A DNA stretch of 15,256 nucleotides from a virus: UHGV virus genome UHGV-0159580; one strand, written 5' to 3'. Position numbers and translations under genes: made by a program. The stretch's first letter is position 1. Each line of letters begins with the position of its first letter. The notes under the pieces were generated by a model. That model saw only the letters and a program-made list of their open reading frames with translations. It did no database searches and was not told the origin of the DNA. This document shows positions 1,133 through 15,256 of the stretch, one piece after another.

Positions 1133-1136
1133 ATGC

Positions 1137-2525: not shown

Positions 2526-2563
2526 ATTGTTTTATCATATATGAATATATTGTACAACACAAA

Positions 2564-2577
2564 GTGCATACTTGCAC
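2564..2577. promoter_or_regulatory. Inverted repeat GTGCA-N4-TGCAC in a non-coding gap (candidate operator or promoter-associated site)
   Basis: gtgcaTACTtgcac at 2564..2577. The same half-site arrangement recurs at the centre of the 32-bp palindrome at 14622..14653. Confidence 0.25.
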
Positions 2578-2626
2578 GTTGTGTTGCTAAAAATGTCACC
2601 ATTGTACAACATGTATTGAGCTTTTG

Positions 2627-2663
2627 CACACAAAACAAGCAGACTGCAATTGCAGCCTGCTTG
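2627..2663 (-). terminator. Rho-independent terminator candidate for the minus-strand transcript downstream of CDS 2713..3258
   Basis: On the minus strand, CAAGCAGGCTGC-AATT-GCAGTCTGCTTG forms a 12-bp stem (one G-U pair) with a 4-nt loop, immediately followed by UUUUGUGUG. It lies in the 187-bp gap 2526..2712. Confidence 0.5.
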
Positions 2664-2712
2664 CACTTGTTTACTAACCCTTAAAATCAATGACACTATG
2701 TCAATGTCATTT

Positions 2713-3258
2713 TTACTTTGCGTCTGCTTCTTGCAATTCAGCTTCAGCAGTCTTTTCAGCGAGCTCAGCTTGCTTGCGCTTGTCAATTTCCTGCAAACAT
2801 GCGTCAAGTGCAGTGGCGTTTTCACGATACTGCTCATCGAACTTCTGCACTTCTGCTGCAGGAGCCTCAAGCAGATTGTTGAGCGAATCCAGTGCTGCAG
2901 CAACCTGAGCGCCCTTGAACTTTGTCGTTGATACTGCACGAACAATGTACTTGAACTCGAAGATGCCCATAGTGCTTCGTCCTTTTGCAGCGTCAGTAGC
3001 CCATGCAGCAAATGCGACAACGTCACGCATAAGTCGCATATCAAACTCAAGCTGCGGCAAAACAAGTTCGCACACATTACGTGCAACAGACTTAAGCAGC
3101 TCGCCATCAGTTGTGACAATCATCTGCATTGACTGCGATTTGTCTTCGAGTTCTTTTCGAGCTTCGCTGAGCGACTTTTCAAGTGCTTTCAGCTGCTCCA
3201 TTGTCATGTCTTTGAGTTCAGTTGCAGGCTTTGCTGCAACAGCATTTTTCTTTGCCAT
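2713..3258 (-). CDS. Hypothetical protein, Ala/Glu/Lys-rich with predicted coiled-coil termini
   Basis: 181-aa ORF with ATG start (MAKKNAVAAKP...) and protein-like composition. Preferred over the overlapping 2535..3119 ORF, which is Ser/Leu-rich low complexity. Confidence 0.7.
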   Translation of the reverse strand: MAKKNAVAAKPATELKDMTMEQLKALEKSLSEARKELEDKSQSMQMIVTTDGELLKSVARNVCELVLPQLEFDMRLMRDVVAFAAWATDAAKGRSTMGIFEFKYIVRAVSTTKFKGAQVAAALDSLNNLLEAPAAEVQKFDEQYRENATALDACLQEIDKRKQAELAEKTAEAELQEADAK

Positions 3259-3271
3259 ACGAATAAATGTG

Positions 3272-3823
3272 TTATGAGATGATTTTGATGATTGTTAATG
3301 CTAACGCCGTTAAGCACATTGCACTTAACAGAATCTTCCATATTACAGCAGAACGTCTTAGCAATCGCAAGGGCTGTTCTTCTGCATATGCAAGATATTC
3401 GAGTTCAGCAACATTTGACATCACTGTTCTAATGATGCCATTGCCGGTGTAGTTATGTCGAAGTGTTACGACATCAAGCAGATTGTTTTGCACAAGTTGA
3501 TTGAAGACAGGTTCCATGCGTTCATGCATGATGTGCTCAACAATTGCGACTGAGTCAAGCGCTTCAAATTCTGTGCCTTGTATTGTTGCAATGACTTCGG
3601 CAGGGAGCTGCGTATGCACAATGAAGCATCGTTGTTCATTGAACAATGCAAATCCACTGTTCTTCAAAAATGTCAAAAAGTACTCATGTTCAGGGTCATT
3701 CAGATAGTCAAGCAGATATTGATGCCACTTGTTAGCTTCTGCATCAAGCTTGTTTAGACGTCGAATGACACCAAATGGCCATAAAGCCAATTTGGCATTG
3801 TGGAGGATGGTTTTGTAGTTCAT
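3272..3823 (-). CDS. Hypothetical protein with a hydrophobic C-terminal segment (possible membrane anchor)
   Basis: The ORF-track start at 3832 is a TTG; the first in-frame ATG is at 3823..3821 (MNYKTILHNAK...). The C-terminus ...AVIWKILLSAMCLTALALTIIKIIS is hydrophobic. Confidence 0.65.
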   Translation of the reverse strand: MNYKTILHNAKLALWPFGVIRRLNKLDAEANKWHQYLLDYLNDPEHEYFLTFLKNSGFALFNEQRCFIVHTQLPAEVIATIQGTEFEALDSVAIVEHIMHERMEPVFNQLVQNNLLDVVTLRHNYTGNGIIRTVMSNVAELEYLAYAEEQPLRLLRRSAVIWKILLSAMCLTALALTIIKIIS

Positions 3824-3828
3824 ATGTG

Positions 3829-4827
3829 TCAATGTTCAAGATGACATGCGCCATTCTGACAGCCTGTATTGCCATCTGACACGCTTGCAAGATTTGCATT
3901 GCTGCCACTACCAGCAGCTTTGCCAGCATTGCCAGATGAGCCAACAATGCTTATGAGTCTACTGTCAGACATTGCAGAGCCTGCATTAGCTGAACCTGAT
4001 TTGCTTGGCAATGATATTCTGGCTTCATCATAGTTGCCGCCGAAAGTGATGTTCAAGTCAAGTGTAGAATCATCACTGTCAATATCAATGTTGTGCTCGT
4101 AGTCTGTGATGATGTCATCGCCAGCCCATATGTTATCACCAGAATTGATTGCAGGATATTGCAAGTGCAGTGTCAATGGCAGCTTAATGACTGCATCAAT
4201 ATCTTCTTTGCCATGCACAATTGCATGCTGAGCATCCATAGAAGACACATCAAATTCATATGATGCGCCATGCATGGTGCCTGCCCAGACAAAGCCATAC
4301 ATGTTCAACTGATACAGCTTGCTAAGTAAATACTCGTAAGTCTCAAGCGCAGTTAACCAATCTGTTGAAAACACTTGCACATTGATAGCAAAATCTACTG
4401 GTATTCGTCTCATTGTGCTATACAATGCGACAGGCACACTGTCAATTGTGGCAATCAAACGAATCTGTGTATCTTGCATGCCAAGTGCTTGTTTGTTGAT
4501 TCGAGGCGACTCTACTTCAACAACACATCGCGGCACAGTTTGAACAAAGTTCTTTGCGTCAACAAATGCATTTTCAAGTGAATTTGTTGGTGTATTGCCA
4601 ACTGGACTTGAGCCTTTGCCAACAAGTTCACCCGACCAATATCGTTGGTCACCAGTGCTCAGCATGTATGTCGGCATATTCAGACGAGCATATAAATCAG
4701 ACAACAGGCCAATAAATGCATTACGAAAGAAGTGCTGAAATGTCACGTCTTTTGCATTGACTTGCTGTTTGATTGCAGCTTGAGCTGATTTCAGCTCAGC
4801 TGAGCTCCTGTTCAGTGAATCTTTCAT
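3829..4827 (-). CDS. Hypothetical protein with a Gly/Ser/Asn/Ala-rich C-terminal tail
   Basis: 332-aa ORF with ATG start and an ATGA overlap with the upstream gene. The low-complexity tail is SGSANAGSAMSDS...SSGNAGKAAGSGSNANLASVSDGNTG. Confidence 0.75.
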   Translation of the reverse strand: MKDSLNRSSAELKSAQAAIKQQVNAKDVTFQHFFRNAFIGLLSDLYARLNMPTYMLSTGDQRYWSGELVGKGSSPVGNTPTNSLENAFVDAKNFVQTVPRCVVEVESPRINKQALGMQDTQIRLIATIDSVPVALYSTMRRIPVDFAINVQVFSTDWLTALETYEYLLSKLYQLNMYGFVWAGTMHGASYEFDVSSMDAQHAIVHGKEDIDAVIKLPLTLHLQYPAINSGDNIWAGDDIITDYEHNIDIDSDDSTLDLNITFGGNYDEARISLPSKSGSANAGSAMSDSRLISIVGSSGNAGKAAGSGSNANLASVSDGNTGCQNGACHLEH

Positions 4828-5258
4828 TGGTCAAGCATATCATTAGCAGCTTTTTGCTGCATAACGAGTTTTAGCAAAGCGTCATTGCCCTGTGATTCAA
4901 GCATGTCTTTAGCTATGATGAGCTTGTTTGTGTATGACAACTGGTCCCAACAAAGCTTTGTGTCAAGCTCATAATACGTGTTGATTGCATCAAACACATC
5001 GATAAGCTGCAAAGCGCTTTTTGTTAACGCAGCGCATTTTGCGATGCACTCATTGTACTTTGTTGGCTCAATGAACTTGTATTTGCGAAGTCTTATTCTA
5101 ATGTACCTGTGATACGAAGACTTTTGCAAAAACTGTTCTATTGTAGATGTTGCTGATGCTACTACAGTGTCATCATTGATTGAAAGCTTGTCGTATTTGA
5201 TTTCAAACCGCTCAAGTTCAGTAGATAGCCATTCATTGTCAAATATCGACTTGCCCAT
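4824..5258 (-). CDS. Hypothetical protein
   Basis: 144-aa ORF with ATG start; its stop overlaps the next start (ATGA at 4824-4827). Confidence 0.7.
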   Translation of the reverse strand: MGKSIFDNEWLSTELERFEIKYDKLSINDDTVVASATSTIEQFLQKSSYHRYIRIRLRKYKFIEPTKYNECIAKCAALTKSALQLIDVFDAINTYYELDTKLCWDQLSYTNKLIIAKDMLESQGNDALLKLVMQQKAANDMLDQ

Positions 5259-5282
5259 AGCGTATAAACTGCTTGTAGTGTG

Positions 5283-5651
5283 TTATTGCATATTGTCGAC
5301 AATCAGCTGTTCAAGTGCAGTAGCTGACAATGCGCCAGTTGCACGGCCAACTTCAATGCAATCACGAAAGACAATTGTCGTTGGTACTGAACGAACATTG
5401 TGAGTGCTATCAAGCTCATCGCACTCTTCAACATTCACTTCAGCAAATGTCACTTTGCCATTGAATTTCTTTTCAGTTGACTCGAAAATTGGCGCATAAC
5501 CTTGACAAGGCACACACCATGGCGCACTGAACTTCACTACAACGAGTGGATTGTTTGCAAGTGCTCGAGCCATTTCGGCTTTATGTTTGAGTTGCAGCAT
5601 ATCTTTTTTTATGTTTGTTGTTGACAATATATGTATATTTGCATTACGCAT
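5283..5651 (-). CDS. Thioredoxin (thioredoxin fold with a CVPC active site)
   Basis: FSAPWCVPCQGYAPIFE matches the thioredoxin WCGPC region with Gly replaced by Val. The C-terminal VRSVPTTIVFRDCIEVGRATGALSATALEQLI matches the thioredoxin cis-Pro and Gly region (E. coli GIRGIPTLLLFKNGEV...GALSK). The start at 5651 overlaps the upstream gene by 8 nt; an internal ATG at 5600 is possible. Confidence 0.85.
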   Translation of the reverse strand: MRNANIHILSTTNIKKDMLQLKHKAEMARALANNPLVVVKFSAPWCVPCQGYAPIFESTEKKFNGKVTFAEVNVEECDELDSTHNVRSVPTTIVFRDCIEVGRATGALSATALEQLIVDNMQ

Positions 5652-6099: not shown

Positions 6100-6117
6100 T
6101 TATATTGATAATGTACA

Positions 6118-7713
6118 TCAAAGCTTGAATTTTTGCACTTTTGCATCTACTGGCATCTTTTCAGCGTCATAGATTCGTTTTCGAGCAGCAAAGTGTTGCA
6201 TGTCATAATTGCAGTAGCAATAGCCTTTGCGAAGCTTGACAAGCATATCACTGTGAATTGTAAGCTTATGTGCAATATCAATAATGATTGCTTTCTGCTT
6301 AAGTGGATGCTTACGCAACAGTCGACCAATTGACTGTAATGTTACGTTGTCAGATTTGCCAATCATTAAGAACGCAGCGTAAAACCAAGCATGCACAGAT
6401 ACACCTGTAGACAAAGTACCAGTAGTTGCAATCATGATATGTCTGTCAGGCTCTGCTTCCATCATTGCAAGCATATCTTTGCGTTCATGCAAGGGTACAT
6501 CACCTCTAATGATGTGAACAACCTTGTCAACACCAGACTGCTGTATGAATGTTTGGCAAGCATCATAGATGTTCTGCACATGGTCTCGTCGTTTGCAAAG
6601 TACAAGAGCATTTTTGTCAAGCGAACAAATGATTTTTGCAATGAGCTTGTTAGCATCGACGTAGTTCATGCAATGATGTTGTTCTGCTGGAAGCAGTCTT
6701 GCAGTGTTATCAAACACTTCAGGATGCTCTTCAAGATACTGCACAAATGGCGCATCGTATTCTGCTGAATGCTCAATGACTACTCGTTTGATTTCAAAGT
6801 CAGACACGATGTTCTTTTCGAGTGCTTGAGCTACACCAAATGTACCCAATATTGGCCCAATGTACGATTCAATTGTCAAACGAGCTGCAGTATGTTCAAG
6901 CGGCAATGAACCAGACACACCAAGACGATAATGAGCCTTTGTGCAATGACTGAAGATTTCACGAATTGATGCTGCAGGTGCACCATGAGCTTCATCAGTC
7001 ACAATAAAGTCAAACTGTTCGAAAAAATCTGCTGGCATATTGACAAGACTTTGATATGTGCCGACAACCATATCTGCATCTTGCATTTTGTACTCATTGC
7101 GAACGCCTGAATGGATTTTGTAGAGCTTGTAGTTCTTGTTTGCTAAATCTGACTCATTTTGTTGATAGCTGACAACAATATCGTCAAATGCTTGTGATAC
7201 AAGATGCACCGAGGGTACAATCATAAGCGTTTTGCCATTGATTCTCTTGCTATCTTTTAAGAAGCGACTAATTACATAAACAAGAGCTGTTTTGCCATAA
7301 GACGTCGCAAGGCGCAAACAGCATTTCTTGAATTTGCAAGCAGTCAAAATGAATTTGAGCTGGTCGTCACGCATGTCAAATGGCATGTCAAGACATTCTG
7401 CCCATTGCTCAAGTTCTTCAAGCGATACAATGCGGTCAAAATTGTCAATGAGACCCTCAATCTTGACTTCATATGGAATTGGCTTACGCAATTGTAGGTC
7501 CCAAATACGCTTCCATAAGCCAAATGGCAAGTACACGCCATTAAACACATAGCAAATTTGCCCATTCCAATCTGCTTTGCGACCTTTACGCTTATTGACT
7601 GCTGCTGCAACAAAGTTTGGCACTTCTGCAGTAGCTTCAGCATACAATTGCTTGACTTCCAAATCATTTGCTTCGACAATCTGAAGCAAATCACCTATGA
7701 CTTTGAGTCTCAT
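6118..7713 (-). CDS. Superfamily 2 DNA/RNA helicase (DEAD/DEAH-box type; UvsW-like role possible)
   Basis: Helicase motifs are present in canonical order: Walker A LATSYGKTAL, motif II VTDEAH, motif III GVSGSL, motif V IATTGTLSTGVSV and motif VI QSIGRLLR. An N-terminal domain of about 130 aa is unassigned. Confidence 0.85.
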   Translation of the reverse strand: MRLKVIGDLLQIVEANDLEVKQLYAEATAEVPNFVAAAVNKRKGRKADWNGQICYVFNGVYLPFGLWKRIWDLQLRKPIPYEVKIEGLIDNFDRIVSLEELEQWAECLDMPFDMRDDQLKFILTACKFKKCCLRLATSYGKTALVYVISRFLKDSKRINGKTLMIVPSVHLVSQAFDDIVVSYQQNESDLANKNYKLYKIHSGVRNEYKMQDADMVVGTYQSLVNMPADFFEQFDFIVTDEAHGAPAASIREIFSHCTKAHYRLGVSGSLPLEHTAARLTIESYIGPILGTFGVAQALEKNIVSDFEIKRVVIEHSAEYDAPFVQYLEEHPEVFDNTARLLPAEQHHCMNYVDANKLIAKIICSLDKNALVLCKRRDHVQNIYDACQTFIQQSGVDKVVHIIRGDVPLHERKDMLAMMEAEPDRHIMIATTGTLSTGVSVHAWFYAAFLMIGKSDNVTLQSIGRLLRKHPLKQKAIIIDIAHKLTIHSDMLVKLRKGYCYCNYDMQHFAARKRIYDAEKMPVDAKVQKFKL

Positions 7714-7720
7714 GACATGA

Positions 7721-7768
7721 CTTGTTAAATGAAAAGAGGCTCAGACAAACAATGTCTGTCTGAGCCTC
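7721..7768 (-). terminator. Hairpin plus U-tract (terminator or attenuator candidate) between the SSB-like gene and the helicase gene
   Basis: Perfect 12-bp stem gaggctcagaca (7736..7747) with tgtctgagcctc (7757..7768) and a 9-nt loop. On the minus strand it is followed by UUUUCAUUU (plus 7727..7735). Confidence 0.45.
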
Positions 7769-7790: not shown

Positions 7791-8921
7791 CTACTTGAGC
7801 CCGTTGATGAATGCTTCAGTTTCAGCATCCATCGTTGCTGCTGCAGGTGCTGCTGCCGGAGCTGCTGCAGGTGCAGGCTCTGCTGCAGGCGCTGAAGCTG
7901 CTGCAAACGGGTCAATAGCTGTCTGAGCTGCTGGTGCAGTAGCAGGCGCAGCTGCCGGAGCTGCTGCAGGTGCAGGCTGAGTAGTCTGTGCCTGCTGAGT
8001 TGCTGACGGATTGATGACAATGTCAGGCCAGATGTCCGACACATCCTTGTAGTTAGCAAGGCGCATCTTAACCTGACGCTTGATGTCATCAGAAGCTTCG
8101 TGGTAGCCCCACTCCTTTTCGACATTCGGGTACTCCTTGAGCATGTCGACAATCTGCTGCATGATTTGCTGCTTGTATGCAGGGTCAGTGTCATACTTCG
8201 CCTGGTCAACAAGCGTGCCATCTGCAAGCAGCATCGACGATACGTTGGGCGAAATCGTCGAAGTCTCGTAGTCACGCATTTCAACACCATTGACGTCTTT
8301 CAGCGTAATCTTCAAGAGAATGTCGTGGCCCTTAACGGGATGGAACATGTCCATAGGCTGAGCGCCCATCTGGATGTCTTCGTCGGTCGGCTTCATTGCA
8401 GACATGCAACGCTTGTAGATGGCTGCGGGTAACCTGTATGGTAACACGCGACCAACGTTCTCAGTGTGCACTGAATCAGCCTTGATTTGCACGAGGCAAG
8501 TGTACTGACTCTGCATGCTGAACTCTCGCTTTGCAAGTGCTTCCTGCTGAGCATCCTTGGTATTGATGAGATCCCAGTAAAAATTTGATACTGGGCACCA
8601 ACCATAGGGTTTCATCAAATTTTCAGGATTTTCAGGATGCGGATTCGGCGAGCTCGGCGAATTGTAGCGGAAGCCCTGATTAGCGCCAGTCCCAAACCAG
8701 TAATAGCGGATGATTGAAATCGGCACAGCAGGGTCGTTCAAGTTCGGCAGAATTCGAATGACTGCTCGATAGATTCGGTCCTTACTTTCGGAAGGCTTAG
8801 GATTGAAGAACTCGGGTCCTGCAGAACGTTCCGGCTTAGCAAAGCTTGCTACATTGTCCGGCTGGACATCAAAGATTGACAGCGGCCGATTGCCATTCTG
8901 TCCATTTTCAATTTGTGACAT
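7791..8921 (-). CDS. Putative ssDNA-binding protein, T4 gp32-like, with a Pro/Ala-rich linker and a short C-terminal tail
   Basis: 376-aa ORF with ATG start. RAVIRILPNLNDPAVP resembles the gp32 segment I recall as QAVIRFLPSKNDEQAPF, and VGRVLPYRLPAAIYKRCMSAM resembles gp32 [20 protein letters not shown]. Both comparisons are from memory, not a search. A PAPAAAPAAAPA low-complexity linker precedes the tail ...TMDAETEAFINGLK. Confidence 0.55.
   Translation of the reverse strand: MSQIENGQNGNRPLSIFDVQPDNVASFAKPERSAGPEFFNPKPSESKDRIYRAVIRILPNLNDPAVPISIIRYYWFGTGANQGFRYNSPSSPNPHPENPENLMKPYGWCPVSNFYWDLINTKDAQQEALAKREFSMQSQYTCLVQIKADSVHTENVGRVLPYRLPAAIYKRCMSAMKPTDEDIQMGAQPMDMFHPVKGHDILLKITLKDVNGVEMRDYETSTISPNVSSMLLADGTLVDQAKYDTDPAYKQQIMQQIVDMLKEYPNVEKEWGYHEASDDIKRQVKMRLANYKDVSDIWPDIVINPSATQQAQTTQPAPAAAPAAAPATAPAAQTAIDPFAAASAPAAEPAPAAAPAAAPAAATMDAETEAFINGLK
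7800..7990. repeat. GC-rich simple-sequence region (GCTGCNGGN-type) encoding the Pro/Ala-rich linker, with a duplicated block of about 30 bp
   Basis: gctgccggagctgctgcaggtgcaggct occurs at about 7850 and again at about 7942. The surrounding sequence is a near-periodic gctgc(a/c)gg repeat. Confidence 0.7.
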
Positions 8922-9037
8922 CGCAATAAAATTTTAGAAAGTTTAACAAAAAGTTTGAAATAGACTCTTAAGAAAATCTTCAGAAGTTTATTTGTTTTGT
9001 ATATGTATATGATACAACATGCGAATATCATTTGCAC

Positions 9038-10291
9038 TTATCTTGCATGGCCACAGTCATAAACTGCAACATAACCTGCATCAATCATCTCTTGCTCATT
9101 TTGTCCGCAGTCTTCAATATGCTCTTTTGTTTTGAGATGACACCAGTGTTTGCGAATTGTCGACCTGTCATCTGACAGATGTGGCTTAAGTGCGAAGTCA
9201 GTTGAATCTACAGGTTCACCTGCAAGATGCTTTCTAATGACGTCAATGACTTCATTGTCATCCATCCATTCGAATATTGTAATGCAAGTGTAGCCATGCT
9301 TGAGAGCAAGCTGAGTTTTGTCGAAGTGATATTGCGTGCCAGTCGGCCAATTGTCTTTTGATTTGCCAACAATATAAATGTATGACAATGTTGAATTATG
9401 CGTAATTGTTGGATTGACTTCAATCAATAACTTACAACAATCATTGACATAGCTAAGGTCATATGAACGATTTTCAATGTTAACTGCATCAAAATCACAC
9501 GCAATTCCAAGTTCTTGCAATAATTTGTCATGCCACCATTTATTTGCTTTTGATATGACTTTGCCTTGTGCTGTACGACATTTAGTAGTCATACAATGCC
9601 AAGGCACACCATAACGTTGCATACATGTTTCTGATACTTTACTCATATTGCCGCATCCATTGCCGTATCGCTCACGCTTTATTGCAACGCATTTAGCAAT
9701 GTCACCAAACCCATTACCATATCGCTCACGCTTTGTCGCAATTGATTTAGCAATGTTGCCTGGTCCCGCATTGCCATATCGCTCACGCTTTGTCGCATGA
9801 ATTTTGTCAATAGGCCCAATTGCATTGCCATATTTAGCAATCTTTGCAGCAACAGTCTTTTGCATAGTTTCAGCACTGCATACACCATTATCATAGCGTT
9901 CAAGCTTTGTTGCTACTGCTTTCTGCGGATTACCTGAACGTGCGCCATAGCGTGCAATATTTGTTGCTTCACATTTTTCTTTTGGCCCAAATGTGTTGCC
10001 ATACAGTAGCTTCTTTGTGGCTTGCTGACGTTCAAGAGGTCCTTGTGCATAACCATAGCGCTCAATATTTGTTTGCTTACTTTTATCAATGACTGATTGC
10101 ACAAGTCTACAACTTTCTACACCATATTTGCGTAAGCACCCAATTTTTGTGCCATATCGATTCTTAATTTTGCCGTGTACAGTGACATTTCTGCTCAACC
10201 GAATGTTCTCAGTTGTTCTCAACAACTCATCTCGCTCTTGCTCAAGTTCTGCAATTCGTTTCTCAAGAGCTTCACCAGTTAGTGGTGTCAT
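9038..10291 (-). CDS. Repeat-containing protein: N-terminal coiled coil, about 9-10 tandem repeats of about 21 aa with an (K/E)RYG(N) core, and a C-terminal Vsr/DUF559-like PD-(D/E)xK endonuclease-like domain (homing-endonuclease-like)
   Basis: 417-aa ORF with ATG start and an ATGA overlap with the upstream gene. Repeats include IATKRERYGNAGPGNIAKS, IATKRERYGNGFGDIAKCV and AIKRERYGNGCGNM. The C-terminus LLIEVNPTITHNS...HFDKTQLALKHGYTCITIFEW follows the Vsr/DUF559 pattern (IEvDG..H...D..R...L...GW.vlRf). The domain assignment is by motif only. Confidence 0.45.
   Translation of the reverse strand: MTPLTGEALEKRIAELEQERDELLRTTENIRLSRNVTVHGKIKNRYGTKIGCLRKYGVESCRLVQSVIDKSKQTNIERYGYAQGPLERQQATKKLLYGNTFGPKEKCEATNIARYGARSGNPQKAVATKLERYDNGVCSAETMQKTVAAKIAKYGNAIGPIDKIHATKRERYGNAGPGNIAKSIATKRERYGNGFGDIAKCVAIKRERYGNGCGNMSKVSETCMQRYGVPWHCMTTKCRTAQGKVISKANKWWHDKLLQELGIACDFDAVNIENRSYDLSYVNDCCKLLIEVNPTITHNSTLSYIYIVGKSKDNWPTGTQYHFDKTQLALKHGYTCITIFEWMDDNEVIDVIRKHLAGEPVDSTDFALKPHLSDDRSTIRKHWCHLKTKEHIEDCGQNEQEMIDAGYVAVYDCGHAR
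9657..9835. repeat. Tandem direct repeats of about 57-60 bp, at least three well-conserved copies, inside CDS 9038..10291
   Basis: attgccRtatcgctcacgcttt(a/g)t(t/c)gca... recurs at about 9657, 9713 and 9771, with degenerate copies continuing toward 10180. These encode the (K/E)RYG protein repeats. Confidence 0.8.
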
Positions 10292-11028
10292 TTCACTTCA
10301 GGTTTTGCTTGCTTGGCCAACTCAGCTTCAGCATTGAACTCTTTGCCCTCAGCTTTCATTGTTTCGGCATAAGTCTTTTCATCAGTATAGCGTTCTACAT
10401 CATCGCCAAGTAATTTTGCGACTTCATCATCTGCTTCAAACAATGGCTGTGGATTGTCATCGTTGTCATCTTTGAGTTGCTCAAATGTGCTGTTATGCTT
10501 TTCTGCAATTTTGATGAGGTCGACGATTGAACGAGTTACGAGTTCACCATTGATGCCTGACTGCTGTTCAGATTGACCAGAGCCTTGTTGCAATTCTGCT
10601 TGGGTTGCTCGAACATTATTGTTGAGTGACGCAAGTACATTGGGAAGCGTTCGACAATATGATATATATTGCTGAACCAACGACATTGCGTCATTCTGTA
10701 GTTTGATGAGAAACGCAAACTCACCCATGCCTCCGCCTTGTGCATCAATGCGCTCGAACACTGAATCAAGTGCATGCATTGCATAGAACACTTGTTTGCA
10801 AAGCAAATTGATGTTTGTCTTCTCCATCTCAATTGATGCATCAATAAACGGTGACTTGACATCAGCTGCTATGCACAATTTGCGAACTTCGTCAACGTAT
10901 TTTGAACACTTGTCAAGTGTTTTGTCAAGTTTGCTTCGGTCAAACTGCTTGTAAACTTCTAACGCATCGCTTACTTCTGCAGCATCCAATATTGCATTTG
11001 CTGCAGCCAATTCTGATTCTCTGCTCAT
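10288..11028 (-). CDS. Hypothetical protein with an acidic C-terminal region
   Basis: 246-aa ORF with ATG start. The overlapping 10536..10862 ORF is in another frame and less protein-like. Confidence 0.7.
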   Translation of the reverse strand: MSRESELAAANAILDAAEVSDALEVYKQFDRSKLDKTLDKCSKYVDEVRKLCIAADVKSPFIDASIEMEKTNINLLCKQVFYAMHALDSVFERIDAQGGGMGEFAFLIKLQNDAMSLVQQYISYCRTLPNVLASLNNNVRATQAELQQGSGQSEQQSGINGELVTRSIVDLIKIAEKHNSTFEQLKDDNDDNPQPLFEADDEVAKLLGDDVERYTDEKTYAETMKAEGKEFNAEAELAKQAKPEVK

Positions 11029-12927: not shown

Positions 12928-13208
12928 ATACGCTCAAGTTTTATGATGTCAGTTCTTAATGATTTGTATGCGGCAAATAATTCAGTCCAGCCTCGTACAT
13001 AACCAACGCCAATTACATGCAATGCATGCGCATCTGGTTTTGCATGACAATGTCTTGCATGAGGCTGCTGTTCAAGTTCTGCTTGTGTAAGATAGGCCTT
13101 TGATGAGTCATCATGCACAAAACATGGAAATACTGGCTGTGCAAGTTCTGTTATGTCAATGTCTTGACCATTAGATAGCTTTGCAAGATATAATGTATTG
13201 GCTTGCAT
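12924..13208 (-). CDS. Hypothetical small protein, paralog of CDS 12340..12600
   Basis: 94 aa with ATG start (MQANTLYLAKLSNGQDIDITELAQPVFPC...HVIGVGYVRGWTELFAAYK). Shares conserved blocks with the 12340..12600 product. Confidence 0.65.
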   Translation of the reverse strand: MQANTLYLAKLSNGQDIDITELAQPVFPCFVHDDSSKAYLTQAELEQQPHARHCHAKPDAHALHVIGVGYVRGWTELFAAYKSLRTDIIKLERI

Positions 13209-13345
13209 GTTACATTGAGATGTTAAGAATTCGCTTGACTACAGAATCGATATCATTGTTTGCTACATTGCACAGTTCCATGCGAACATTAGAATCAATG
13301 AACAAGTCATGAAACGTTGACGCAGCTTGAACAACTTATTTGAGC

Positions 13346-13636
13346 TCATATTCGTGTAAGTTTGATGACACAATGCCGACAAGCTGCAAAAGTACTCAAT
13401 ATTGTTTCTACTTTGACACTGTACTGCACGTCAATAATGCGATATGCGCCACACAATGTCGACATTTCTTGACGACGTTCTGCAGGAACATTAACACTGT
13501 CTGTCAAATTGATGATTGCGCCAATTTGCATAGATGACATGACTGCAAATTGTTCTGGACCTACTTCTGCTTTGCGATATGCGACTTGTTTGTTGTTTTC
13601 GCAAATGCTGAATGCTACTATATAATTTGGTGTCAT
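13346..13636 (-). CDS. Hypothetical protein
   Basis: 96-aa ORF with ATG start. The overlapping 13491..13775 ORF is in another frame and judged spurious. Confidence 0.55.
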   Translation of the reverse strand: MTPNYIVAFSICENNKQVAYRKAEVGPEQFAVMSSMQIGAIINLTDSVNVPAERRQEMSTLCGAYRIIDVQYSVKVETILSTFAACRHCVIKLTRI

Positions 13637-13653
13637 GATGACTGTGTGTTAAT

Positions 13654-14136
13654 TTATTCGTTATCGTCAGTATCGCATCCCATGCAATCTTCAAGAGTTG
13701 CAAAATCATCGTCAAAGTCATCGAATTCAGGCTCTTTATTACACCACTTGTATGGCGGATTGTTGAGCAATTCATGCTCTATTGCATTTGACTGTGCAGA
13801 AAGTGGAACATATTCGAACGCTTTGACTGACATGTCAAATTTGATGCAATGCAGCCACGGAAACATATCAGTGTCCTCATTCACAATTGGCTGACGAACG
13901 TAGTCTTTCATTGCAATGAACTTGCTGCGGGCGTCCCAGTCTTTTATAGGAATTTCAAATTGCGATATGGTCGTATGACAATCGTCAAAGAAATTGCAGG
14001 ATACACCTACAATAACATGAGAGTCTGTACGTTTGCGTTCTATTGCAAGAAAGTCATGTTTCTTAGAAAGACGAACTTCTCCATGTTTCTCTAAGAAGAT
14101 TTTAAGAAGCTCTTTGTTAATGTCGTTGATGTTCAT
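13654..14136 (-). CDS. Hypothetical protein with an acidic, Cys-containing C-terminus
   Basis: 160-aa ORF with ATG start. The C-terminus is ...EFDDFDDDFATLEDCMGCDTDDNE; CNFFDDCH and CMGC cysteine pairs are present. The 14 nt upstream of the ATG are near-identical to those upstream of the next gene. Confidence 0.65.
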   Translation of the reverse strand: MNINDINKELLKIFLEKHGEVRLSKKHDFLAIERKRTDSHVIVGVSCNFFDDCHTTISQFEIPIKDWDARSKFIAMKDYVRQPIVNEDTDMFPWLHCIKFDMSVKAFEYVPLSAQSNAIEHELLNNPPYKWCNKEPEFDDFDDDFATLEDCMGCDTDDNE

Positions 14137-14158
14137 TGTTGTAGAGATTTTGTGATGT

Positions 14159-14473
14159 TTAATACTGAGTTTTTGCAGATATAGCTACTTTAATTGCTGC
14201 TTTAATTTGTTCGATTGCATCTTGTGAGAACAATTCTGGCACTGCTAAATAGTGATACCATGATGTTGGCGCTGCCTGCATATCAGTTCGTTTAACTGCG
14301 AACCGAAGTTCTTTTGGCGAACCAAGGCAACCCATGTATTGACAGCTTGTTAACTTAACTTGTGCATTGTTAATGCTGCTATGAATATCAAGATGAGACA
14401 GATTTATTCTGTCATAGAATTTTAGATGCTTTAGTTGTTTTTCAATTGCTTTGAATGCGTTTGTATTATTCAT
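14159..14473 (-). CDS. Hypothetical protein
   Basis: The ORF-track start at 14506 is a TTG lying inside a TGCAATA repeat; the first ATG is at 14473 (MNNTNAFKAIEKQLKHL...). The leader AAACCTCTACAACA-ATG is shared with CDS 13654..14136 (AAATCTCTACAACA-ATG). Confidence 0.6.
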   Translation of the reverse strand: MNNTNAFKAIEKQLKHLKFYDRINLSHLDIHSSINNAQVKLTSCQYMGCLGSPKELRFAVKRTDMQAAPTSWYHYLAVPELFSQDAIEQIKAAIKVAISAKTQY

Positions 14474-14501
14474 TGTTGTAGAGGTTTGTATACTATATTG
14501 A

Positions 14502-14522
14502 TGCAATATGCAATATGCAATA
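14502..14522. repeat. Three tandem copies of the heptamer TGCAATA, 29-49 nt upstream of the ATG of CDS 14159..14473
   Basis: tgcaata-tgcaata-tgcaata, read directly from the sequence. Confidence 0.8.
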
Positions 14523-14621
14523 TATTAAAATATATTGATATATGATAATTGTACTACAAAAATCCCAAATTTGCACACTTTGATAATCAAAAGTGCAAAC
14601 AAAATTCAAAGTTATATTGTA

Positions 14622-14653
14622 CATCATAAAGTGCAAATTTGCACTTTATGATG
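14622..14653. promoter_or_regulatory. Perfect 32-bp palindrome (candidate operator for a dimeric DNA-binding protein, or hairpin)
   Basis: catcataaagtgcaaatttgcactttatgatg is its own reverse complement; the core is GTGCA-N4-TGCAC. Related half-sites occur at 14568 (TTTGCACAC) and 14591 (AAAGTGCAAA) in the same gap. Confidence 0.55.
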
Positions 14654-14667
14654 CTGCAAAATGTCTG

Positions 14668-14700
14668 CATAAAATAAGCAGCTTAGCAATCTAAGCTGCT
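14668..14700 (-). terminator. Rho-independent terminator candidate downstream of minus-strand CDS 14725..15240
   Basis: Perfect 10-bp stem agcagcttag/ctaagctgct with a 4-nt loop at 14677..14700, followed on the minus strand by UAUUUUAUG (plus 14668..14676). Confidence 0.55.
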
Positions 14701-14724
14701 GTCATTGCGTATATGCAGTCACTG

Positions 14725-15240
14725 TCATTTGTAGTGTTCAGTTATGTATGCAGAGCATAGCAATACAACTGATATGCAAATGACAATGTATGTTGGCGTA
14801 ATCAGTGTTACATTGAATAACAATGCAGTCAATGCGCATACTGTTACTGATATGAGTGTTGAAATGAATGCAGCATATGCACTAAATTTGCTTTTGAACA
14901 AACGTTCAATGACATATGTTGTCGCAACAGACAGTAAGACTACATATGCAAATAACAACAGCCAAGTTGAGTTTGACGTTGTTGGCTCTTCAATAAACTG
15001 CAATGTTGCTGATGGCACTTCAATGTTATTTGATGCTTGCAAAGTGCCGCTTACTGCATCTGCATACATCACAGTTAAGTAGTGTCGTTGAATTTCTGCT
15101 GCGTCTACTTTATAGATTCTATGCCATGCAACATCTGATATGATGTATGTTGCAGCCATAAATACAGCAATGCATAGCATATAAGAGCCAAACTTTGCAA
15201 TCGGTTTCATGCAAATATATTTTTGTTTGTATATGTACAT
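14725..15240 (-). CDS. Integral membrane protein (about 4 predicted TM helices), function unknown
   Basis: 171-aa ORF from ATG at 15240; an alternative ATG at 15210 gives MKPIAKFGSYMLCIAVFMAATYII... Hydrophobic segments include LCIAVFMAATYIISDVAW, WLLLFAYVVLLSVATTYVI, AAFISTLISVTVCALTALLF and IVICISVVLLCSAYI. Confidence 0.7.
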   Translation of the reverse strand: MYIYKQKYICMKPIAKFGSYMLCIAVFMAATYIISDVAWHRIYKVDAAEIQRHYLTVMYADAVSGTLQASNNIEVPSATLQFIEEPTTSNSTWLLLFAYVVLLSVATTYVIERLFKSKFSAYAAFISTLISVTVCALTALLFNVTLITPTYIVICISVVLLCSAYITEHYK

Positions 15241-15256
15241 AAAAGAGCAAGTTCTC

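What the first reader, a model, noticed from the sequence alone, without database searches (positions are those of the whole stretch)
14474..14724. Structured 251-bp non-coding region: terminator, perfect 32-bp palindrome, GTGCA half-site repeats and a (TGCAATA)x3 array
This is the largest gap in the window. From right to left on the minus strand it holds a terminator hairpin (14677..14700), a perfect 32-bp palindrome with GTGCA-N4-TGCAC core (14622..14653), further TTTGCAC/GTGCAAA half-sites (14568, 14591), and three tandem TGCAATA heptamers just upstream of the next gene. A similar GTGCA-N4-TGCAC inverted repeat sits in the other large gap (2564..2577). This suggests a regulated promoter/operator region or possibly a replication origin; which repeats are functional is unknown.
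Basis: seen in the sequence. Interest (0 to 1): 0.6.

Follow-up and report, generated by a model that had tools for sequence, protein, structure and literature searches.

The report
Terminator plus tandem phage promoter cassette
The 251-bp gap is the end of one transcription unit and the start of the next in a large uncultured phage: a terminator hairpin, then two copies of a phage-specific promoter (GTGCAA-N17-TACAAT) that recurs across the genome and marks where related phages have swapped gene blocks. This is an ordinary kind of element with a promoter sequence I found no description of.

Summary
Four of them fit one explanation. The "GTGCA half-sites" are the -35 boxes, and their mirror copies, of two tandem promoters on the gene (minus) strand. 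These are P1 (14644..14616) and P2 (14576..14548), both GTGCAA-N17-TACAAT, 32 nt after an intrinsic terminator (14700..14677).

The exact pattern occurs 4 times in the window against 0.01 expected, always after a terminator and upstream of a gene. In 63 kb of a related 175-kb phage, the same pattern with a relaxed -10 box (TA..[AT]T) occurs 12 times on the gene strand and never on the other. The consensus of 15 independent copies is GTGCAAA-N11-TGTTG-TAcaAT.

The promoter block is more conserved than the neighbouring gene. P2 is the only segment shared by relatives with different flanks. This is the terminator/promoter recombination-cassette pattern described for T4-like phages (PeSL).

The host is probably a Bacteroidota, and the motif does not fit that phylum's promoter consensus. 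Relatives encode a sigma-70-family factor, a candidate reader that remains unproven.

The 32-bp palindrome kept its symmetry through a double substitution, but its role is unresolved. The heptamer array is a variable repeat in the 5' leader. A replication origin is unsupported.

The parts
14725..15240 (-). Upstream gene: 171-aa predicted membrane protein whose transcript the terminator ends (context).
   Evidence: ORF. It is 93-95% identical in protein in relatives L002 and L003. No Pfam or PHROG match.
14667..14700 (-). Intrinsic terminator: stem AGCAGCTTAG / CTAAGCTGCT, loop ATTG, then the U-rich tail TATTTTAT.
   Evidence: I10; -15.3 kcal/mol. The stem is invariant in 4 relatives, while the loop varies (ATTG, CAAT, CACT).
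14622..14653 (.). Perfect 32-bp palindrome, CATCATAAAGTGCAAA|TTTGCACTTTATGATG. It spans -44 to -13 of P1, and its right arm abuts the P1 -10 box.
   Evidence: I2. L003 carries CATCAcAAAG...CTTTgTGATG, a double substitution that keeps the palindrome perfect. As an RNA hairpin it would fold at -21.7 kcal/mol.
14616..14644 (-). Promoter P1: -35 GTGCAA (14644..14639), 17-nt spacer, -10 TACAAT (14621..14616). Predicted start near 14609.
   Evidence: Exact match. Identical in L002 and L095. The start site is inferred from sigma-70 geometry and is not mapped.
14570..14599 (.). Imperfect 30-bp palindrome, TTTGCACTTTTGAT-T-ATCAAAGTGTGCAAA. Its right arm holds the P2 -35 box. It lies at about +11 to +40 of the P1 transcript.
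   Evidence: -11.9 kcal/mol, followed by UUUGGGAUUUUUG.
14548..14576 (-). Promoter P2: -35 GTGCAA (14576..14571), 17-nt spacer, -10 TACAAT (14553..14548). Predicted start near 14541. P1 and P2 are a 68-bp tandem duplication.
   Evidence: (D1: 48-nt direct repeat, 71% identical, spacing 68). The core from -35 to about +16 is the only block shared by all six related sequences.
14532..14547 (-). Conserved region just after the P2 -10 box (TATCATATATCAATAT), containing the CATATA motif common to this promoter class. Homology to L002, L003 and L095 ends here.
14501..14523 (.). Tandem heptamer array (ATGCAAT on the + strand, ATTGCAT on the gene strand) x3.3, inside the roughly 68-nt AT-rich leader of the P2 transcript.
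   Evidence: It is identical in L092 and L094. In L002 it is replaced by a 16-mer x5.6, and in L003 and L095 by about 1.5 copies of that 16-mer.
14492..14520 (-). Possible weak third promoter: TTGCAT-N17-TATAGT, followed by ATACAAAC, a sequence that follows the -10 box of other promoters of this class. Speculative.
   Evidence: Read from the sequence. ATACAAAC also follows the -10 box in the SSB and L002_3635 promoters and in L118 after the sigma gene.
14159..14473 (-). First gene served by P1/P2: a 104-aa ORFan with ATG at 14473. It heads a run of small ORFs.
   Evidence: No Shine-Dalgarno sequence. No Pfam or PHROG match.
2549..2629 (-). Sister cassette in the other large gap: P4 (2629..2601) and P3 (2577..2549), both GTGCAA-N17-TACAAT. 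P3 carries the GTGCA-N4-TGCAC dyad with 14-nt arms.
   Evidence: The order of P3 and P4 is swapped in L081 and L034.
2635..2664 (-). Intrinsic terminator preceding P4 (13-bp stem, -22.7 kcal/mol).
9009..9037 (-). Same promoter class upstream of the gp32-like SSB gene: GTGCAA-N17-TATCAT.
   Evidence: Identical in L092.
6110..6138 (-). Same class with one mismatch (GTGCAA-N17-TACATT), 10 nt upstream of the 151-aa gene and inside the 3' end of the helicase gene.

Best explanation
The gap is a composite terminator/promoter cassette on the minus strand of a roughly 175-kb T4-related phage that probably infects a Bacteroidota.

Proposed sequence of events:
1. Transcription of the upstream 171-aa gene stops at the intrinsic terminator (14700..14677 plus its U-tract).
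2. Thirty-two nucleotides further on, two tandem promoters restart transcription into a run of small ORFs beginning with the 104-aa gene. These are P1 (14644..14616) and P2 (14576..14548).
3. Both belong to one genome-wide class with consensus GTGCAAA-N11-TGTTG-TAcaAT, followed by at..CATATA.

- The "GTGCA/TTTGCAC half-sites" are the two -35 hexamers plus inverted copies of that hexamer. One inverted copy lies in the P1 spacer and creates the 32-bp palindrome. The other lies upstream of P2 and creates the second palindrome.
- The heptamer array is a variable repeat in the P2 leader.

Because the promoter core recurs many times in the genome, it also serves as a short stretch of homology at which related phages exchange flanking gene blocks, as in the PeSL model for T4-like phages.

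Shown: the motif statistics, strand and position bias, conservation, and mosaic junctions.

Inferred: promoter activity, start sites and which polymerase factor reads the motif. My preferred reader is the sigma-70-family factor encoded by close relatives, at about 50%. I put host sigma-A, alone or with a phage cofactor, at about 30%.
For: Motif statistics
- GTGCAA-N17-TACAAT has 4 exact matches in the window against 0.01 expected. All are on the gene strand and all lie in the two large gaps just after terminators.
- L001 has 3 matches against 0.01 expected.
- In 63.4 kb of non-redundant sequence from relative contig 149023, GTGCAA-N17-TA..[AT]T occurs 12 times on the gene strand and 0 times on the other. 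Shuffles give a mean of 1.04 for both strands together.

Position and linkage of the two boxes
- In the relatives scanned, every match lies on the gene strand, and all but one have an ORF starting 10-299 nt downstream.
- Searching from the -10 side alone (T[TA]GTA[CTA][AT]AT) finds exactly GTGCAA 17 nt upstream in about half of all hits, so the two boxes are linked.
- Fifteen independent copies give the consensus, including an unselected TG..G block at -17..-13.

Conservation
- Across 10 orthologous promoter groups, variable columns number 0 of 60 in the -35 box, 0 of 50 at -17..-13, 1 of 60 in the -10 box, and 7 of 120 in the spacer (-29..-18). The flanks vary heavily.
- The 122-bp P1-P2 block has 0 mismatches to L002 and L095 and 2 to L003. 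The adjacent gene is 95.5%, 95.4% and 92.1% identical, and the terminator block 87-94%.

Mosaic junctions
- Alignment A1 shows that P2, from its -35 box to about +16, is the only segment common to two alternative left flanks and two alternative right flanks. Three of the four combinations are observed.
- P3 and P4 are swapped in L081 and L034, and an orphan TACAAT is left after the terminator.
- In L003 two tandem promoters are fused.
- This matches the published PeSL description: a stem-loop just upstream of an N17 promoter, located at indel or replacement boundaries in ORFan-rich regions (PMC4122927).

Host and candidate reader
- None of 22 genes has a Shine-Dalgarno sequence.
- The nearest cultured relatives infect Chryseobacterium and Tenacibaculum.
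- The class keeps T-12, A-11 and T-7 but lacks T-8, T-6 and G-5, which are nearly invariant in the Bacteroidota -7 box TAnnTTTG (PMC6847099).
- Relative contig 149023 encodes a 298-aa sigma-70-family protein with regions 2 and 4.
- That gene sits behind a host-like promoter that is nearly identical to promoters of Chryseobacterium phage MA9V-2.

Genes served
- The class precedes genes for topoisomerase II subunits and SSB, as well as ORFans.
Against: - There is no transcript evidence. Promoter function, start sites and termination all rest on sequence logic.
- The copies were collected by requiring exact GTGCAA and TA..[AT]T, so conservation of those boxes is partly circular. Decayed orthologues do exist (ATGCAA in L003, CACAAT in L106).
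- The perfect identity of the P1-P2 block could reflect recent gene conversion rather than selection.
- Only about 5 of 12 promoter loci have a terminator-like hairpin just upstream, so the composite cassette is not the rule.
- The host is inferred, not known. No relative was found in GTDB genomes.
- In L118 the sigma gene lies next to a baseplate-wedge-like gene, so it could be a late-gene sigma that does not read this class.
- The window's own phage is a 15-kb contig, and it is not shown to carry that sigma gene.
Confidence: 0.8

Rival explanations
1. Operator model. The 32-bp palindrome and the GTGCA-N4-TGCAC dyad of P3 are binding sites for a dimeric phage or host regulator. It would sit over -44..-13 and switch P1 and P3 off or on. 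This would be an added layer on the promoters, not a replacement for them.
For: - The 32-bp palindrome is perfect.
- The same core GTGCA-N4-TGCAC, centred at -28.5, occurs in P1 and P3 (2 sites against 0.02 expected).
- A double substitution in L003 keeps the symmetry.
- An inverted copy of the -35 core, TGCA[CT], lies in the spacer of 6 of 15 promoters; 0 of 5000 shuffles reach that number.
- Five of 15 promoters have at least 6 perfect pairs centred between -32 and -27. Shuffles give a mean of 0.5, and 0 of 1000 reach 5.
Against: - The dyads at other promoters have different arm sequences and spacings (offsets 3, 4 and 8), which a sequence-specific dimer would not tolerate.
- The P3 dyad decays in L034 (TGCGC) and L081.
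- No DNA-binding gene is identified nearby.
- Other positions in these AT-rich sequences also show 3-4 promoters with dyads, so the positional enrichment is modest.
Confidence: 0.25
2. Hairpin model. The palindromes matter as nucleic-acid structures. They could form RNA hairpins in read-through or upstream-promoter transcripts, acting as a 5' stabiliser, a processing site or a weak attenuator. They could also form DNA cruciforms that affect promoter opening or recombination.
For: - Arm sequences differ between promoters but stay complementary within each. The one orthologous change is compensatory, U-A to C-G, and is reachable through a G-U intermediate.
- The gap folds into three hairpins with z = -5.1.
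- Palindrome 2 lies at about +11..+40 of the P1 transcript and is followed by UUUGGGAUUUUUG.
- In tandem arrays, the downstream promoter's palindrome falls in the leader of the upstream promoter's transcript (P4 to P3 in the window, P0 to P1 in L003).
Against: - In L002_13003 and L064 the left arm would lie upstream of the start of the neighbouring promoter's transcript, so it would not be in that RNA.
- The stems are AT-rich and short of the roughly 20 bp typical of RNase III sites.
- There is only one compensatory event.
- No Rfam family matches.
Confidence: 0.2
3. Neutral by-product model. The palindromes and repeat arrays have no function of their own. They arise from duplication, inversion and template switching among many near-identical promoter cores (quasi-palindrome correction) and from replication slippage.
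For: - P1 and P2 are a 68-bp duplication (D1).
- Relic promoters and orphan -10 boxes lie next to intact ones.
- The terminator loop is exactly flipped between strains, ATTG against CAAT. This shows that hairpin-templated events occur here.
- The repeat arrays vary from 1.5 to 5.6 copies and differ in unit between close relatives.
Against: The 122-bp block containing both palindromes is markedly better conserved than the flanking gene. A 32-bp perfect palindrome maintained in four sampled phages is more than drift predicts.
Confidence: 0.3
4. Host-polymerase model. P1 and P2 are early promoters read directly by the host sigma-A holoenzyme, possibly helped by a phage cofactor, as for T4 early or middle promoters. 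The phage sigma would serve late genes.
For: - The class precedes ORFan clusters and replication genes, which are typical early or middle cargo in T4-like phages.
- The sigma gene lies next to baseplate genes.
- T-12, A-11 and T-7 are shared with the host -7 box.
- One promoter of the class lies about 2.9 kb upstream in the same gene string as the sigma gene.
Against: - It lacks T-8, T-6 and G-5 of the nearly invariant Bacteroidota -7 element and has no -33 TTTG.
- A clearly host-like promoter class exists in the same genome and is used for the sigma gene.
- A sigma with both region 2 and region 4 needs a bipartite -35/-10 target. Apart from the host-like promoter before the sigma gene, this was the only conserved bipartite motif seen.
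Confidence: 0.3
5. Replication origin model. A promoter plus a downstream AT-rich unwinding element, as at T4 ori(uvsY) and ori(34), or an iteron-type origin that uses the repeat arrays.
For: - P2 is followed by a roughly 68-nt, very AT-rich stretch containing tandem repeats.
- GC skew is slightly positive from about 13 kb onward.
Against: - The repeats have a 7-nt period and only 3.3 copies.
- In close relatives they are replaced by an unrelated 16-mer with 1.5-5.6 copies.
- The same promoter block sits next to different genes in different relatives.
- The same cassette type occurs many times per genome.
- The skew change is weak, about 1.5 kb from the gap, and within the noise of 500-nt windows.
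Confidence: 0.05

Closest known systems
PeSL (promoter-early stem-loop) cassettes of T4-like myoviruses (Arbiol et al. 2010, PMC2839356; Comeau et al. 2014, PMC4122927)
   Same: - A stem-loop or terminator lies just upstream of a -35/N17/-10 promoter that recurs across the genome.
- The -10 consensus is nearly the same: TAYWAT or TAWWAT in PeSLs against TA(C/T/A)(A/T)AT here.
- The cassettes sit between small ORFans and at insertion, deletion or replacement boundaries between close relatives. Degraded and half copies lie nearby.
   Different: - The -35 box is GTGCAA, not TTGACA, TTTACW or TTGYVH, and there is an extra TGTTG block at -17..-13.
- There is no Shine-Dalgarno sequence.
- The probable host is a Bacteroidota, whose own promoters look different. 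These promoters therefore do not mimic the host consensus as PeSL promoters do.
- Only about 5 of 12 promoter loci carry the stem-loop.
- The phage shares only distant (30% identity or less) T4-type replication and baseplate genes.
- Mini-circle recombination was not tested.
Promoter classes read by phage-encoded sigma-70-family factors (for example Bacillus phage SPO1 gp28 middle promoters); from my own knowledge
   Same: A conserved bipartite -35/-10 motif with about 17-nt spacing that differs from the host consensus, found in front of phage replication-type genes, in a phage that encodes its own sigma with regions 2 and 4.
   Different: The sequence is unrelated. The link between this sigma and this motif is an inference with no experiment behind it, and the sigma may instead serve late genes.
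Bacteroidota housekeeping promoters (-33 TTTG / -7 TAnnTTTG; Baez et al. 2019, PMC6847099)
   Same: T-12, A-11 and T-7 are shared. Leaders lack a Shine-Dalgarno sequence.
   Different: A instead of T at -8, no T-6 or G-5, and a strict GTGCAA hexamer at -35 with 17-nt spacing. A separate host-like promoter class does exist in relatives of this phage.
Second promoter-like class of Chryseobacterium phage MA9V-2 (GCACAA-N15-17-TA(C/A/T)AT(A/T), with dyad CACAA...TTGTG), seen here in L117
   Same: It has a similar layout: a CA-rich -35-like box, TTGTG or TGTTG directly before a TAC-type -10 box, and dyad symmetry spanning the -35 box and spacer. It is found in the nearest cultured relative.
   Different: The hexamer differs (GCACAA against GTGCAA) and the spacing is variable. 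Only 4 copies were seen in 50 kb. The two MA9V papers held do not describe it (checked for MA9V-2 only), and it is untested.
T4 middle promoters (MotA box TGCTTtA at -30 plus a -10 box); from my own knowledge and PMC4122927
   Same: A phage-specific upstream box replaces the host -35 and is combined with a sigma-70-like -10. They serve replication genes.
   Different: Here the box occupies -35..-30 with a 17-nt spacer, not about -30 with 11-13 nt. The sequence is unrelated. MotA and AsiA homologues were not looked for.

Membership tests
Sigma-70-type bipartite promoter | Two conserved hexamers separated by 17 +/- 1 nt | tested here: met
   Fifteen independent copies all have a 17-nt spacer. 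The two boxes are statistically linked.
Sigma-70-type bipartite promoter | -10 hexamer with T-12, A-11 and T-7 conserved, and variable middle positions | tested here: met
   The variants are TACAAT, TATCAT, TATTAT, TAATAT and TACATT. The only orthologous change falls at -10. This is partly by construction of the search pattern.
Sigma-70-type bipartite promoter | Co-oriented with, and shortly upstream of, genes; rare elsewhere | tested here: met
   Twelve matches on the gene strand against 0 on the other in 63 kb. In the relatives scanned, all but one match have an ORF starting 10-299 nt downstream.
Sigma-70-type bipartite promoter | Transcripts start 6-8 nt after the -10 box | not testable with these tools
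   No transcript data are available.
Intrinsic (Rho-independent) terminator | G+C-rich hairpin followed by a U-tract, at the end of a gene | tested here: met
   10-bp stem with 5 G-C pairs, tail TATTTTAT, beginning 24 nt after the stop codon. The stem is invariant and the loop variable in relatives.
PeSL cassette | Stem-loop immediately upstream of an N17 promoter | tested here: met
   Met at this locus (32 nt) and at 2635-2664 with P4 (5 nt). Genome-wide it holds for only about 5 of 12 promoter loci.
PeSL cassette | Many near-identical copies per genome, concentrated among small variable ORFs | tested here: met
   At least 12 copies in 36% of a relative's genome. ORFan runs lie downstream.
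PeSL cassette | Copies coincide with indel, replacement or rearrangement junctions between close relatives | tested here: met
   Alignment A1, the P3/P4 swap and the promoter fusion in L003.
PeSL cassette | The promoter resembles the host early (sigma-70) consensus, and a Shine-Dalgarno sequence precedes the start codon | tested here: not met
   The motif does not fit the inferred host's consensus. No Shine-Dalgarno sequence in 22 of 22 genes.
PeSL cassette | The carrier is a T4-like myovirus | tested here: inconclusive
   gp32-like SSB, UvsW-like helicase, topoisomerase II subunits and a baseplate-wedge-like gene are present, but at 30% identity or less. Capsid, portal and terminase genes were not examined.
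PeSL cassette | Recombination between copies yields mini-circles or deletions | not testable with these tools
   This needs PCR on infected cells.
Bacteroidota sigma-A promoter | -7 element TAnnTTTG (T-12, A-11, T-8, T-7, T-6 and G-5 nearly invariant) and -33 TTTG | tested here: not met
   Three of the 6 invariant positions match, and there is no TTTG at -33.
Repressor/operator site | The same dyad-symmetric sequence at co-regulated promoters | tested here: inconclusive
   GTGCA-N4-TGCAC occurs at P1 and P3 only. Other promoters carry different dyads.
Repressor/operator site | A cognate DNA-binding protein | not tested
   No candidate was found among the neighbouring genes by Pfam or PHROGs.
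Phage or plasmid replication origin | Conserved iterons or initiator boxes plus an AT-rich unwinding region | tested here: not met
   The AT-rich leader is present, but the repeat unit and copy number are not conserved among close relatives.
Known structured RNA families (Rfam) | Match at or above the gathering score | tested here: not met
   No matches in the window. No tRNA genes.

The most novel reading that the evidence does not exclude
GTGCAAA-N11-TGTTG-TACAAT is the cognate promoter of a phage-encoded sigma-70-family factor in a lineage of roughly 175-kb T4-related phages of Bacteroidota. Under this reading the phage imports a classical -35/-10 promoter layout into a host whose own polymerase reads a different code. 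The cascade would run from a host-type promoter to the phage sigma to this class. The dyad symmetry around the -35 box would be a selected hairpin or operator that gates these promoters, and the promoter cores would double as portable recombination joints.
Probability: 0.3. Interest if true: 0.6.

Novelty: new member of a known kind. Interest (0 to 1): 0.4.

Why it matters
The finding turns an unexplained cluster of repeats into a usable annotation rule for this uncultured phage lineage. The motif marks the starts of transcription units, and the mosaic junctions show where gene blocks are exchanged.

It extends the terminator/promoter shuffling-cassette idea from T4-like phages of Proteobacteria to a distant lineage that probably infects Bacteroidota. 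Phage transcription signals in that phylum are little studied.

The mismatch with the host promoter code, together with a phage sigma gene behind a host-like promoter, sets up a simple hypothesis that in vitro transcription can test. If confirmed, the motif and sigma pair could also serve as an orthogonal expression part for Bacteroidota.

Tried and rejected
- **Phage-record DNA search.** Megablast of 13000-15256 against 50,697 phage records found no match. Distant relatives were reached only through protein searches.
- **Known RNAs.** Rfam at gathering threshold and a tRNA scan of the window found nothing.
- **Generic sigma-70 scan.** It is not enriched over shuffles (43 against 39.3) and misses P1 and P2, because GTGCAA scores poorly against TTGACA.
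- **Small ORF in the gap.** A 26-codon ORF starts at 14669. I rejected it because L002 carries a 23-nt insertion within it.
- **Divergent promoter from the palindrome's mirror half.** The window has no -10 box at the required place (CTGCAA). L002 and L003 have TAAAAT at 18 nt. I rejected this for the window.
- **Metagenome scan with the 20-nt palindrome core.** Only 2 of 22 hits are relatives. Several of the others lie inside ParB-like coding sequence and the rest are unrelated, so there is no evidence for a widespread operator.
- **A second phage family matching GTGCAA-N14-TTGTACAAT (L007 and others).** This is one homologous locus in which ...TACAATG holds the start codon of a 369-aa gene. 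It is not a shared promoter class.
- **Host identification.** A GTDB genome scan with the helicase found no relative. A literature search for the sample accessions found nothing.
- **Literature search for the motif.** No papers. The MA9V-2 paper does not mention promoters.
- **Mu-like invertible segment in L092.** The two end genes are not paralogues. I left this open.
Full report
**Setting**

The window is a complete 15,256-bp metagenome contig (ENA ERZ507895 NODE_2236). All convincing genes lie on the minus strand. Recognisable genes include:
- a dCMP deaminase;
- a UvsW-type DNA helicase;
- a gp32-type single-strand DNA-binding protein (SSB);
- a homing-endonuclease-like protein;
- a thioredoxin and a papain-like peptidase.

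The rest are small ORFs with no family match.

The best protein matches, at about 30% identity, are to uncultured huge phages and to Chryseobacterium phage MA9V-2. Tenacibaculum phages follow at 26-27%, and the SSB also matches T4-type phages at 26-28%. None of the 22 start codons is preceded by a Shine-Dalgarno sequence. Absence of that signal is characteristic of Bacteroidota (PMC6847099). Megablast found no phage record with similar DNA.

**Checking the observation**

- The terminator is at 14700..14677: 10-bp stem, 5 G-C pairs, loop ATTG, tail TATTTTAT, -15.3 kcal/mol.
- The perfect 32-bp palindrome is at 14622-14653.
- The two further half-sites are at 14570-14576 and 14593-14599, 2 nt from the stated positions. 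Together they form a second, imperfect 30-bp palindrome.
- ATGCAAT x3.3 is at 14501-14523.
- GTGCA-N4-TGCAC is at 2564-2577 in the other large gap.

These features are not chance.
- GTGCAAA occurs 10 times against 2.0 expected, and 6 of the 10 lie in the 6.2% of the window that is non-coding.
- GTGCA-N4-TGCAC has 2 sites against 0.02 expected, both intergenic.
- The gap folds better than all 200 shuffles (z = -5.1).

**What explains the repeats**

On the gene strand, both large gaps contain GTGCAA, then exactly 17 nt, then TACAAT. Each gap has two copies:
- P1 at 14644..14616 and P2 at 14576..14548;
- P4 at 2629..2601 and P3 at 2577..2549.

That is four exact matches against 0.01 expected; 0 of 200 shuffles reach 4. 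Both pairs lie just downstream of a strong intrinsic terminator. P1 and P2 are a 68-bp tandem duplication (D1).

Two weaker copies lie before the SSB gene (GTGCAA-N17-TATCAT, 9037..9009) and before the 151-aa gene (TACATT, 6138..6110). Of the 16 GTGCAA copies on the gene strand, 6 have a TA...T hexamer 17 nt downstream. Of the 9 on the other strand, none does.

One inverted copy lies in the P1 spacer and makes the 32-bp palindrome. The other lies upstream of P2 and makes the second palindrome.

**Relatives**

The palindrome, and later the proteins, led to two phage contigs of about 175 kb: IMGVR_UViG_3300045988_149023 and _152288. They also led to three shorter metagenome contigs and one fragment (L092, L094, L095, L106).

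- In 63.4 kb of non-redundant sequence from contig 149023, GTGCAA-N17-TA..[AT]T occurs 12 times on the gene strand and never on the other. Shuffles give a mean of 1.04 for both strands together.
- In the relatives scanned, every match lies on the gene strand, and all but one have an ORF starting 10-299 nt downstream.
- Starting from the -10 side alone, about half of all T[TA]GTA[CTA][AT]AT hits have exactly GTGCAA 17 nt upstream.
- Fifteen independent copies give the consensus GTGCAAA-N11-TGTTG-TAcaAT, then at..CATATA around the expected start site.
- The class precedes genes for both topoisomerase II subunits and the SSB, as well as ORFan runs.
- A scan of all viral contigs with GTGCAA-N14-TTGTACAAT found multiple hits only in these two contigs. 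The rest were single chance hits, or one homologous locus of an unrelated phage family in which TACAATG holds a start codon.

**Conservation**

Across 10 orthologous promoter groups, the numbers of variable columns are:

| Region | Variable columns |
|---|---|
| -35 box | 0 of 60 |
| spacer, -29..-18 | 7 of 120 |
| -17..-13 | 0 of 50 |
| -10 box | 1 of 60 (middle position) |
| flanks (-60..-36 and -6..+14) | 110 of 450 |

. One caveat applies: copies were found by requiring the boxes, and decayed orthologues exist.

The 122-bp block from the palindrome to just past P2 compares with the window as follows:

| Relative | P1-P2 block (122 bp) | Adjacent 171-aa gene | Terminator block |
|---|---|---|---|
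| L002 | 0 mismatches | 95.5% identical | 88.7% |
| L095 | 0 mismatches | 95.4% identical | 87.3% |
| L003 | 2 mismatches | 92.1% identical | 94.4% |

The two differences in L003 are the mirror positions of the palindrome (CATCAT to CATCAC, ATGATG to GTGATG), so it remains perfect. The terminator stem is invariant while its loop is ATTG, CAAT (an exact flip) or CACT.

**Mosaic junctions**

Alignment A1 shows that P2, from its -35 box to about +16, is the only block shared by all six sequences.
- On the left there are two contexts. One is the 171-aa gene, the terminator and P1. The other, in L092 and L094, is an unrelated element ending in a 111-nt inverted repeat.
- On the right there are also two contexts. 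One is the heptamer array and the 104-aa gene. The other is a 16-mer array and a different 239-aa gene.
- Three of the four combinations are observed.

Other rearrangements point the same way.
- P3 and P4 are in the opposite order in L081 and L034, with an orphan TACAAT left after the terminator.
- L003 carries a fusion of two tandem promoters that L002 still has.
- The 171-aa gene and the genes of window 407-5651 are about 9 kb apart in the window. In contig 149023 they are at least 74 kb apart.

This is the behaviour described for PeSL cassettes of T4-like phages. PeSLs are stem-loops just upstream of N17 promoters, concentrated among ORFans and found at indel or replacement junctions, with degraded copies nearby (PMC4122927; PMC2839356). 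Their -10 consensus (TAYWAT or TAWWAT) is nearly the same as here. Their -35 consensus (TTGACA, TTTACW, TTGYVH) is not.

**Who reads the promoters**

This part is inference. The Bacteroidota housekeeping promoter is -33 TTTG / -7 TAnnTTTG, with T-12, A-11, T-8, T-7, T-6 and G-5 nearly invariant (PMC6847099). The present class keeps only T-12, A-11 and T-7, and it has a strict GTGCAA at -35.

A host-like class does exist in the relatives.
- The gene for a 298-aa sigma-70-family protein in contig 149023 is directly preceded by TTTTCATATGTGACAAAAAATGATTAAATTTATATAAC.
- That protein has Pfam regions 2 and 4, scores 69.5 bits on TIGR02937 against a cutoff of 42.9, and is 27% identical to the annotated sigma factor of MA9V-2.
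- The promoter sequence is nearly identical over about 35 nt to eight repeated promoters of MA9V-2, a phage cultured on a Bacteroidota. Those carry TATATTTG or TAAATTTA -7 boxes.
- The MA9V-2 sigma gene also sits behind a TATATTTG box.

A cascade therefore fits the data: host-type promoter, then phage sigma, then the GTGCAA/TACAAT class. A sigma with regions 2 and 4 needs a bipartite -35/-10 target. MA9V-2 also has a second, similarly built class, GCACAA-N15-17-TAcATA, with a CACAA...TTGTG dyad.

Against this, the sigma gene lies next to a baseplate-wedge-like gene and could serve late genes. In addition, the class precedes typical early or middle cargo. I put the phage-sigma reading at about 50% and host polymerase, with or without a cofactor, at about 30%.

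**The palindromes**

Dyad symmetry around the -35 box is a recurrent feature of the class and is not peculiar to P1.
- An inverted copy of the -35 core, TGCA[CT], lies in the spacer of 6 of 15 promoters; 0 of 5000 shuffles reach that number.
- Five of 15 promoters have at least 6 perfect pairs centred between -32 and -27. Shuffles give a mean of 0.5, and 0 of 1000 reach 5.
- However, arm sequences and spacings differ between promoters, and only P1 and P3 share GTGCA-N4-TGCAC.
- The P3 dyad decays in relatives.
- Other positions in these AT-rich sequences also show dyads.

This pattern argues against a single sequence-specific dimeric repressor. It fits selection for pairing: an RNA hairpin in the leader of the upstream promoter's transcript, or a DNA cruciform. 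It also fits repeated hairpin-templated correction without function. The flipped terminator loop shows that such events happen here. I cannot decide between these readings.

**The heptamer array**

The array lies in the roughly 68-nt AT-rich leader of the P2 transcript. It is identical in the two contigs that share the 104-aa gene. Relatives with a different downstream gene have a 16-mer array instead, with 5.6 or about 1.5 copies. It behaves as a slippage-prone repeat.

One speculative point remains. The array offers TTGCAT 17 nt upstream of TATAGT (14520..14492), followed by ATACAAAC. That sequence follows the -10 box of other promoters of the class, so a weak third promoter is possible.

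**Origin of replication**

This is unsupported. There are no conserved iterons, the repeat content varies between close relatives, the cassette type occurs many times per genome, and the skew signal is weak. A T4-style origin (promoter plus unwinding element) cannot be excluded by sequence alone. I give it about 5%.

**Verdict**

The element is a new member of a known kind, a phage terminator/promoter cassette that also acts as a recombination joint. A literature search found no description of this promoter consensus. The consensus does not match the likely host's promoter code.

Interest is moderate. The anatomy is ordinary for a large lytic phage. The non-host promoter class, the candidate phage sigma and the conserved dyads are worth an experiment.

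Noticed in passing
L092 5510-5620 and 9780-9890: Two 111-nt inverted repeats, 99% complementary, flank a 4.16-kb segment holding six ORFs with no family match. The right repeat ends 8 nt before the -35 box of P2. A 52-nt partial copy lies at 9075-9126. This could be an invertible or mobile segment. The genes at the two ends are not paralogues.
   Followed up: partly
L086 about 1570-1625 (minus strand), equivalent to L118 about 9915-9975; L117 (MA9V-2) 642, 916, 18106, 18493, 30711, 36645, 43464: The host-like promoter before the phage sigma gene is nearly identical over about 35 nt (TTTTCATATGT..AAAAAATGATTAAATTTA.ATA) to repeated promoters of Chryseobacterium phage MA9V-2. The proteins of the two phages are only 27-30% identical.
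   Followed up: partly
L117 (MA9V-2) gaps 10272-10408, 29971-30102, 39330-39423, 45122-45206: A second promoter-like class in the cultured relative: GC(A/G)CAA-N15-17-TA(C/A/T)AT(A/T), with a CACAA...TTGTG dyad spanning the spacer. It is built much like the class in the window. The MA9V-2 paper does not mention promoters.
   Followed up: partly
window 14687-14690, compared with L002, L003 and L095 in alignment A1: The terminator loop is ATTG in the window and L003, CAAT in L002 (the exact reverse complement, a loop flip), and CACT in L095. The 10-bp stem is invariant.
   Followed up: yes
L001 6943-7031 (equivalent to L002 about 10800-10890): A perfect 16-nt tandem array (TATCAATTGCATTCTA x5.6) lies in the leader after P2. 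L003 and L095 have only about 1.5 copies at the same place.
   Followed up: yes
L003 12954-12982, compared with L002 12970-13031: L002 has two tandem promoters 33 nt apart (GTGCAA-N17-TATCAA, then GTGCAA-N17-TACAAT). L003 has a single fused promoter (ATGCAA-N17-TACAAT), as expected from recombination between the repeated boxes.
   Followed up: partly
window 407-5651 and 14725-15240, compared with contig 149023 (L034 and L001): Genes that are about 9 kb apart in the window are at least 74 kb apart in the related 175-kb contig. Either the genomes differ by a large rearrangement or deletion, or the 15-kb contig is a chimeric or recombinant assembly joined at repeated promoter cassettes.
   Followed up: no
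L096-L116 (metagenome hits to AAAGTGCAAATTTGCACTTT): The 20-nt palindrome core recurs in unrelated contigs. Several copies lie inside ParB-like coding sequence, where it encodes ..KSANLHF.. or ..KVQICTF... Others sit in AT-rich non-coding DNA with extra AAAGTGCAAA half-sites (L097, L107, L113, L116).
   Followed up: partly
window 9657-9797 and 7836-7977: There is a 54-nt x2.5 in-frame repeat (..KRERYGNG..) inside the 417-aa homing-endonuclease-like gene. A G+C-rich Ala/Pro-rich repeat lies at the C-terminus of the SSB; GC reaches 0.51 there against about 0.40 elsewhere.
   Followed up: no
window 7736-7768: The strongest terminator in the window (15-bp stem) lies between the SSB and helicase genes. 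No promoter of the GTGCAA class follows it, so the helicase must depend on read-through or on an unrecognised promoter.
   Followed up: no
L118 10898-11014 and 8236-8283: After the sigma gene there is a terminator and then TTTGTACATATACAAAC, with no GTGCAA box (a form with only a -10 box?). A perfect host-type TACATTTG box lies 5 nt before the ATG of the 527-aa gene.
   Followed up: no
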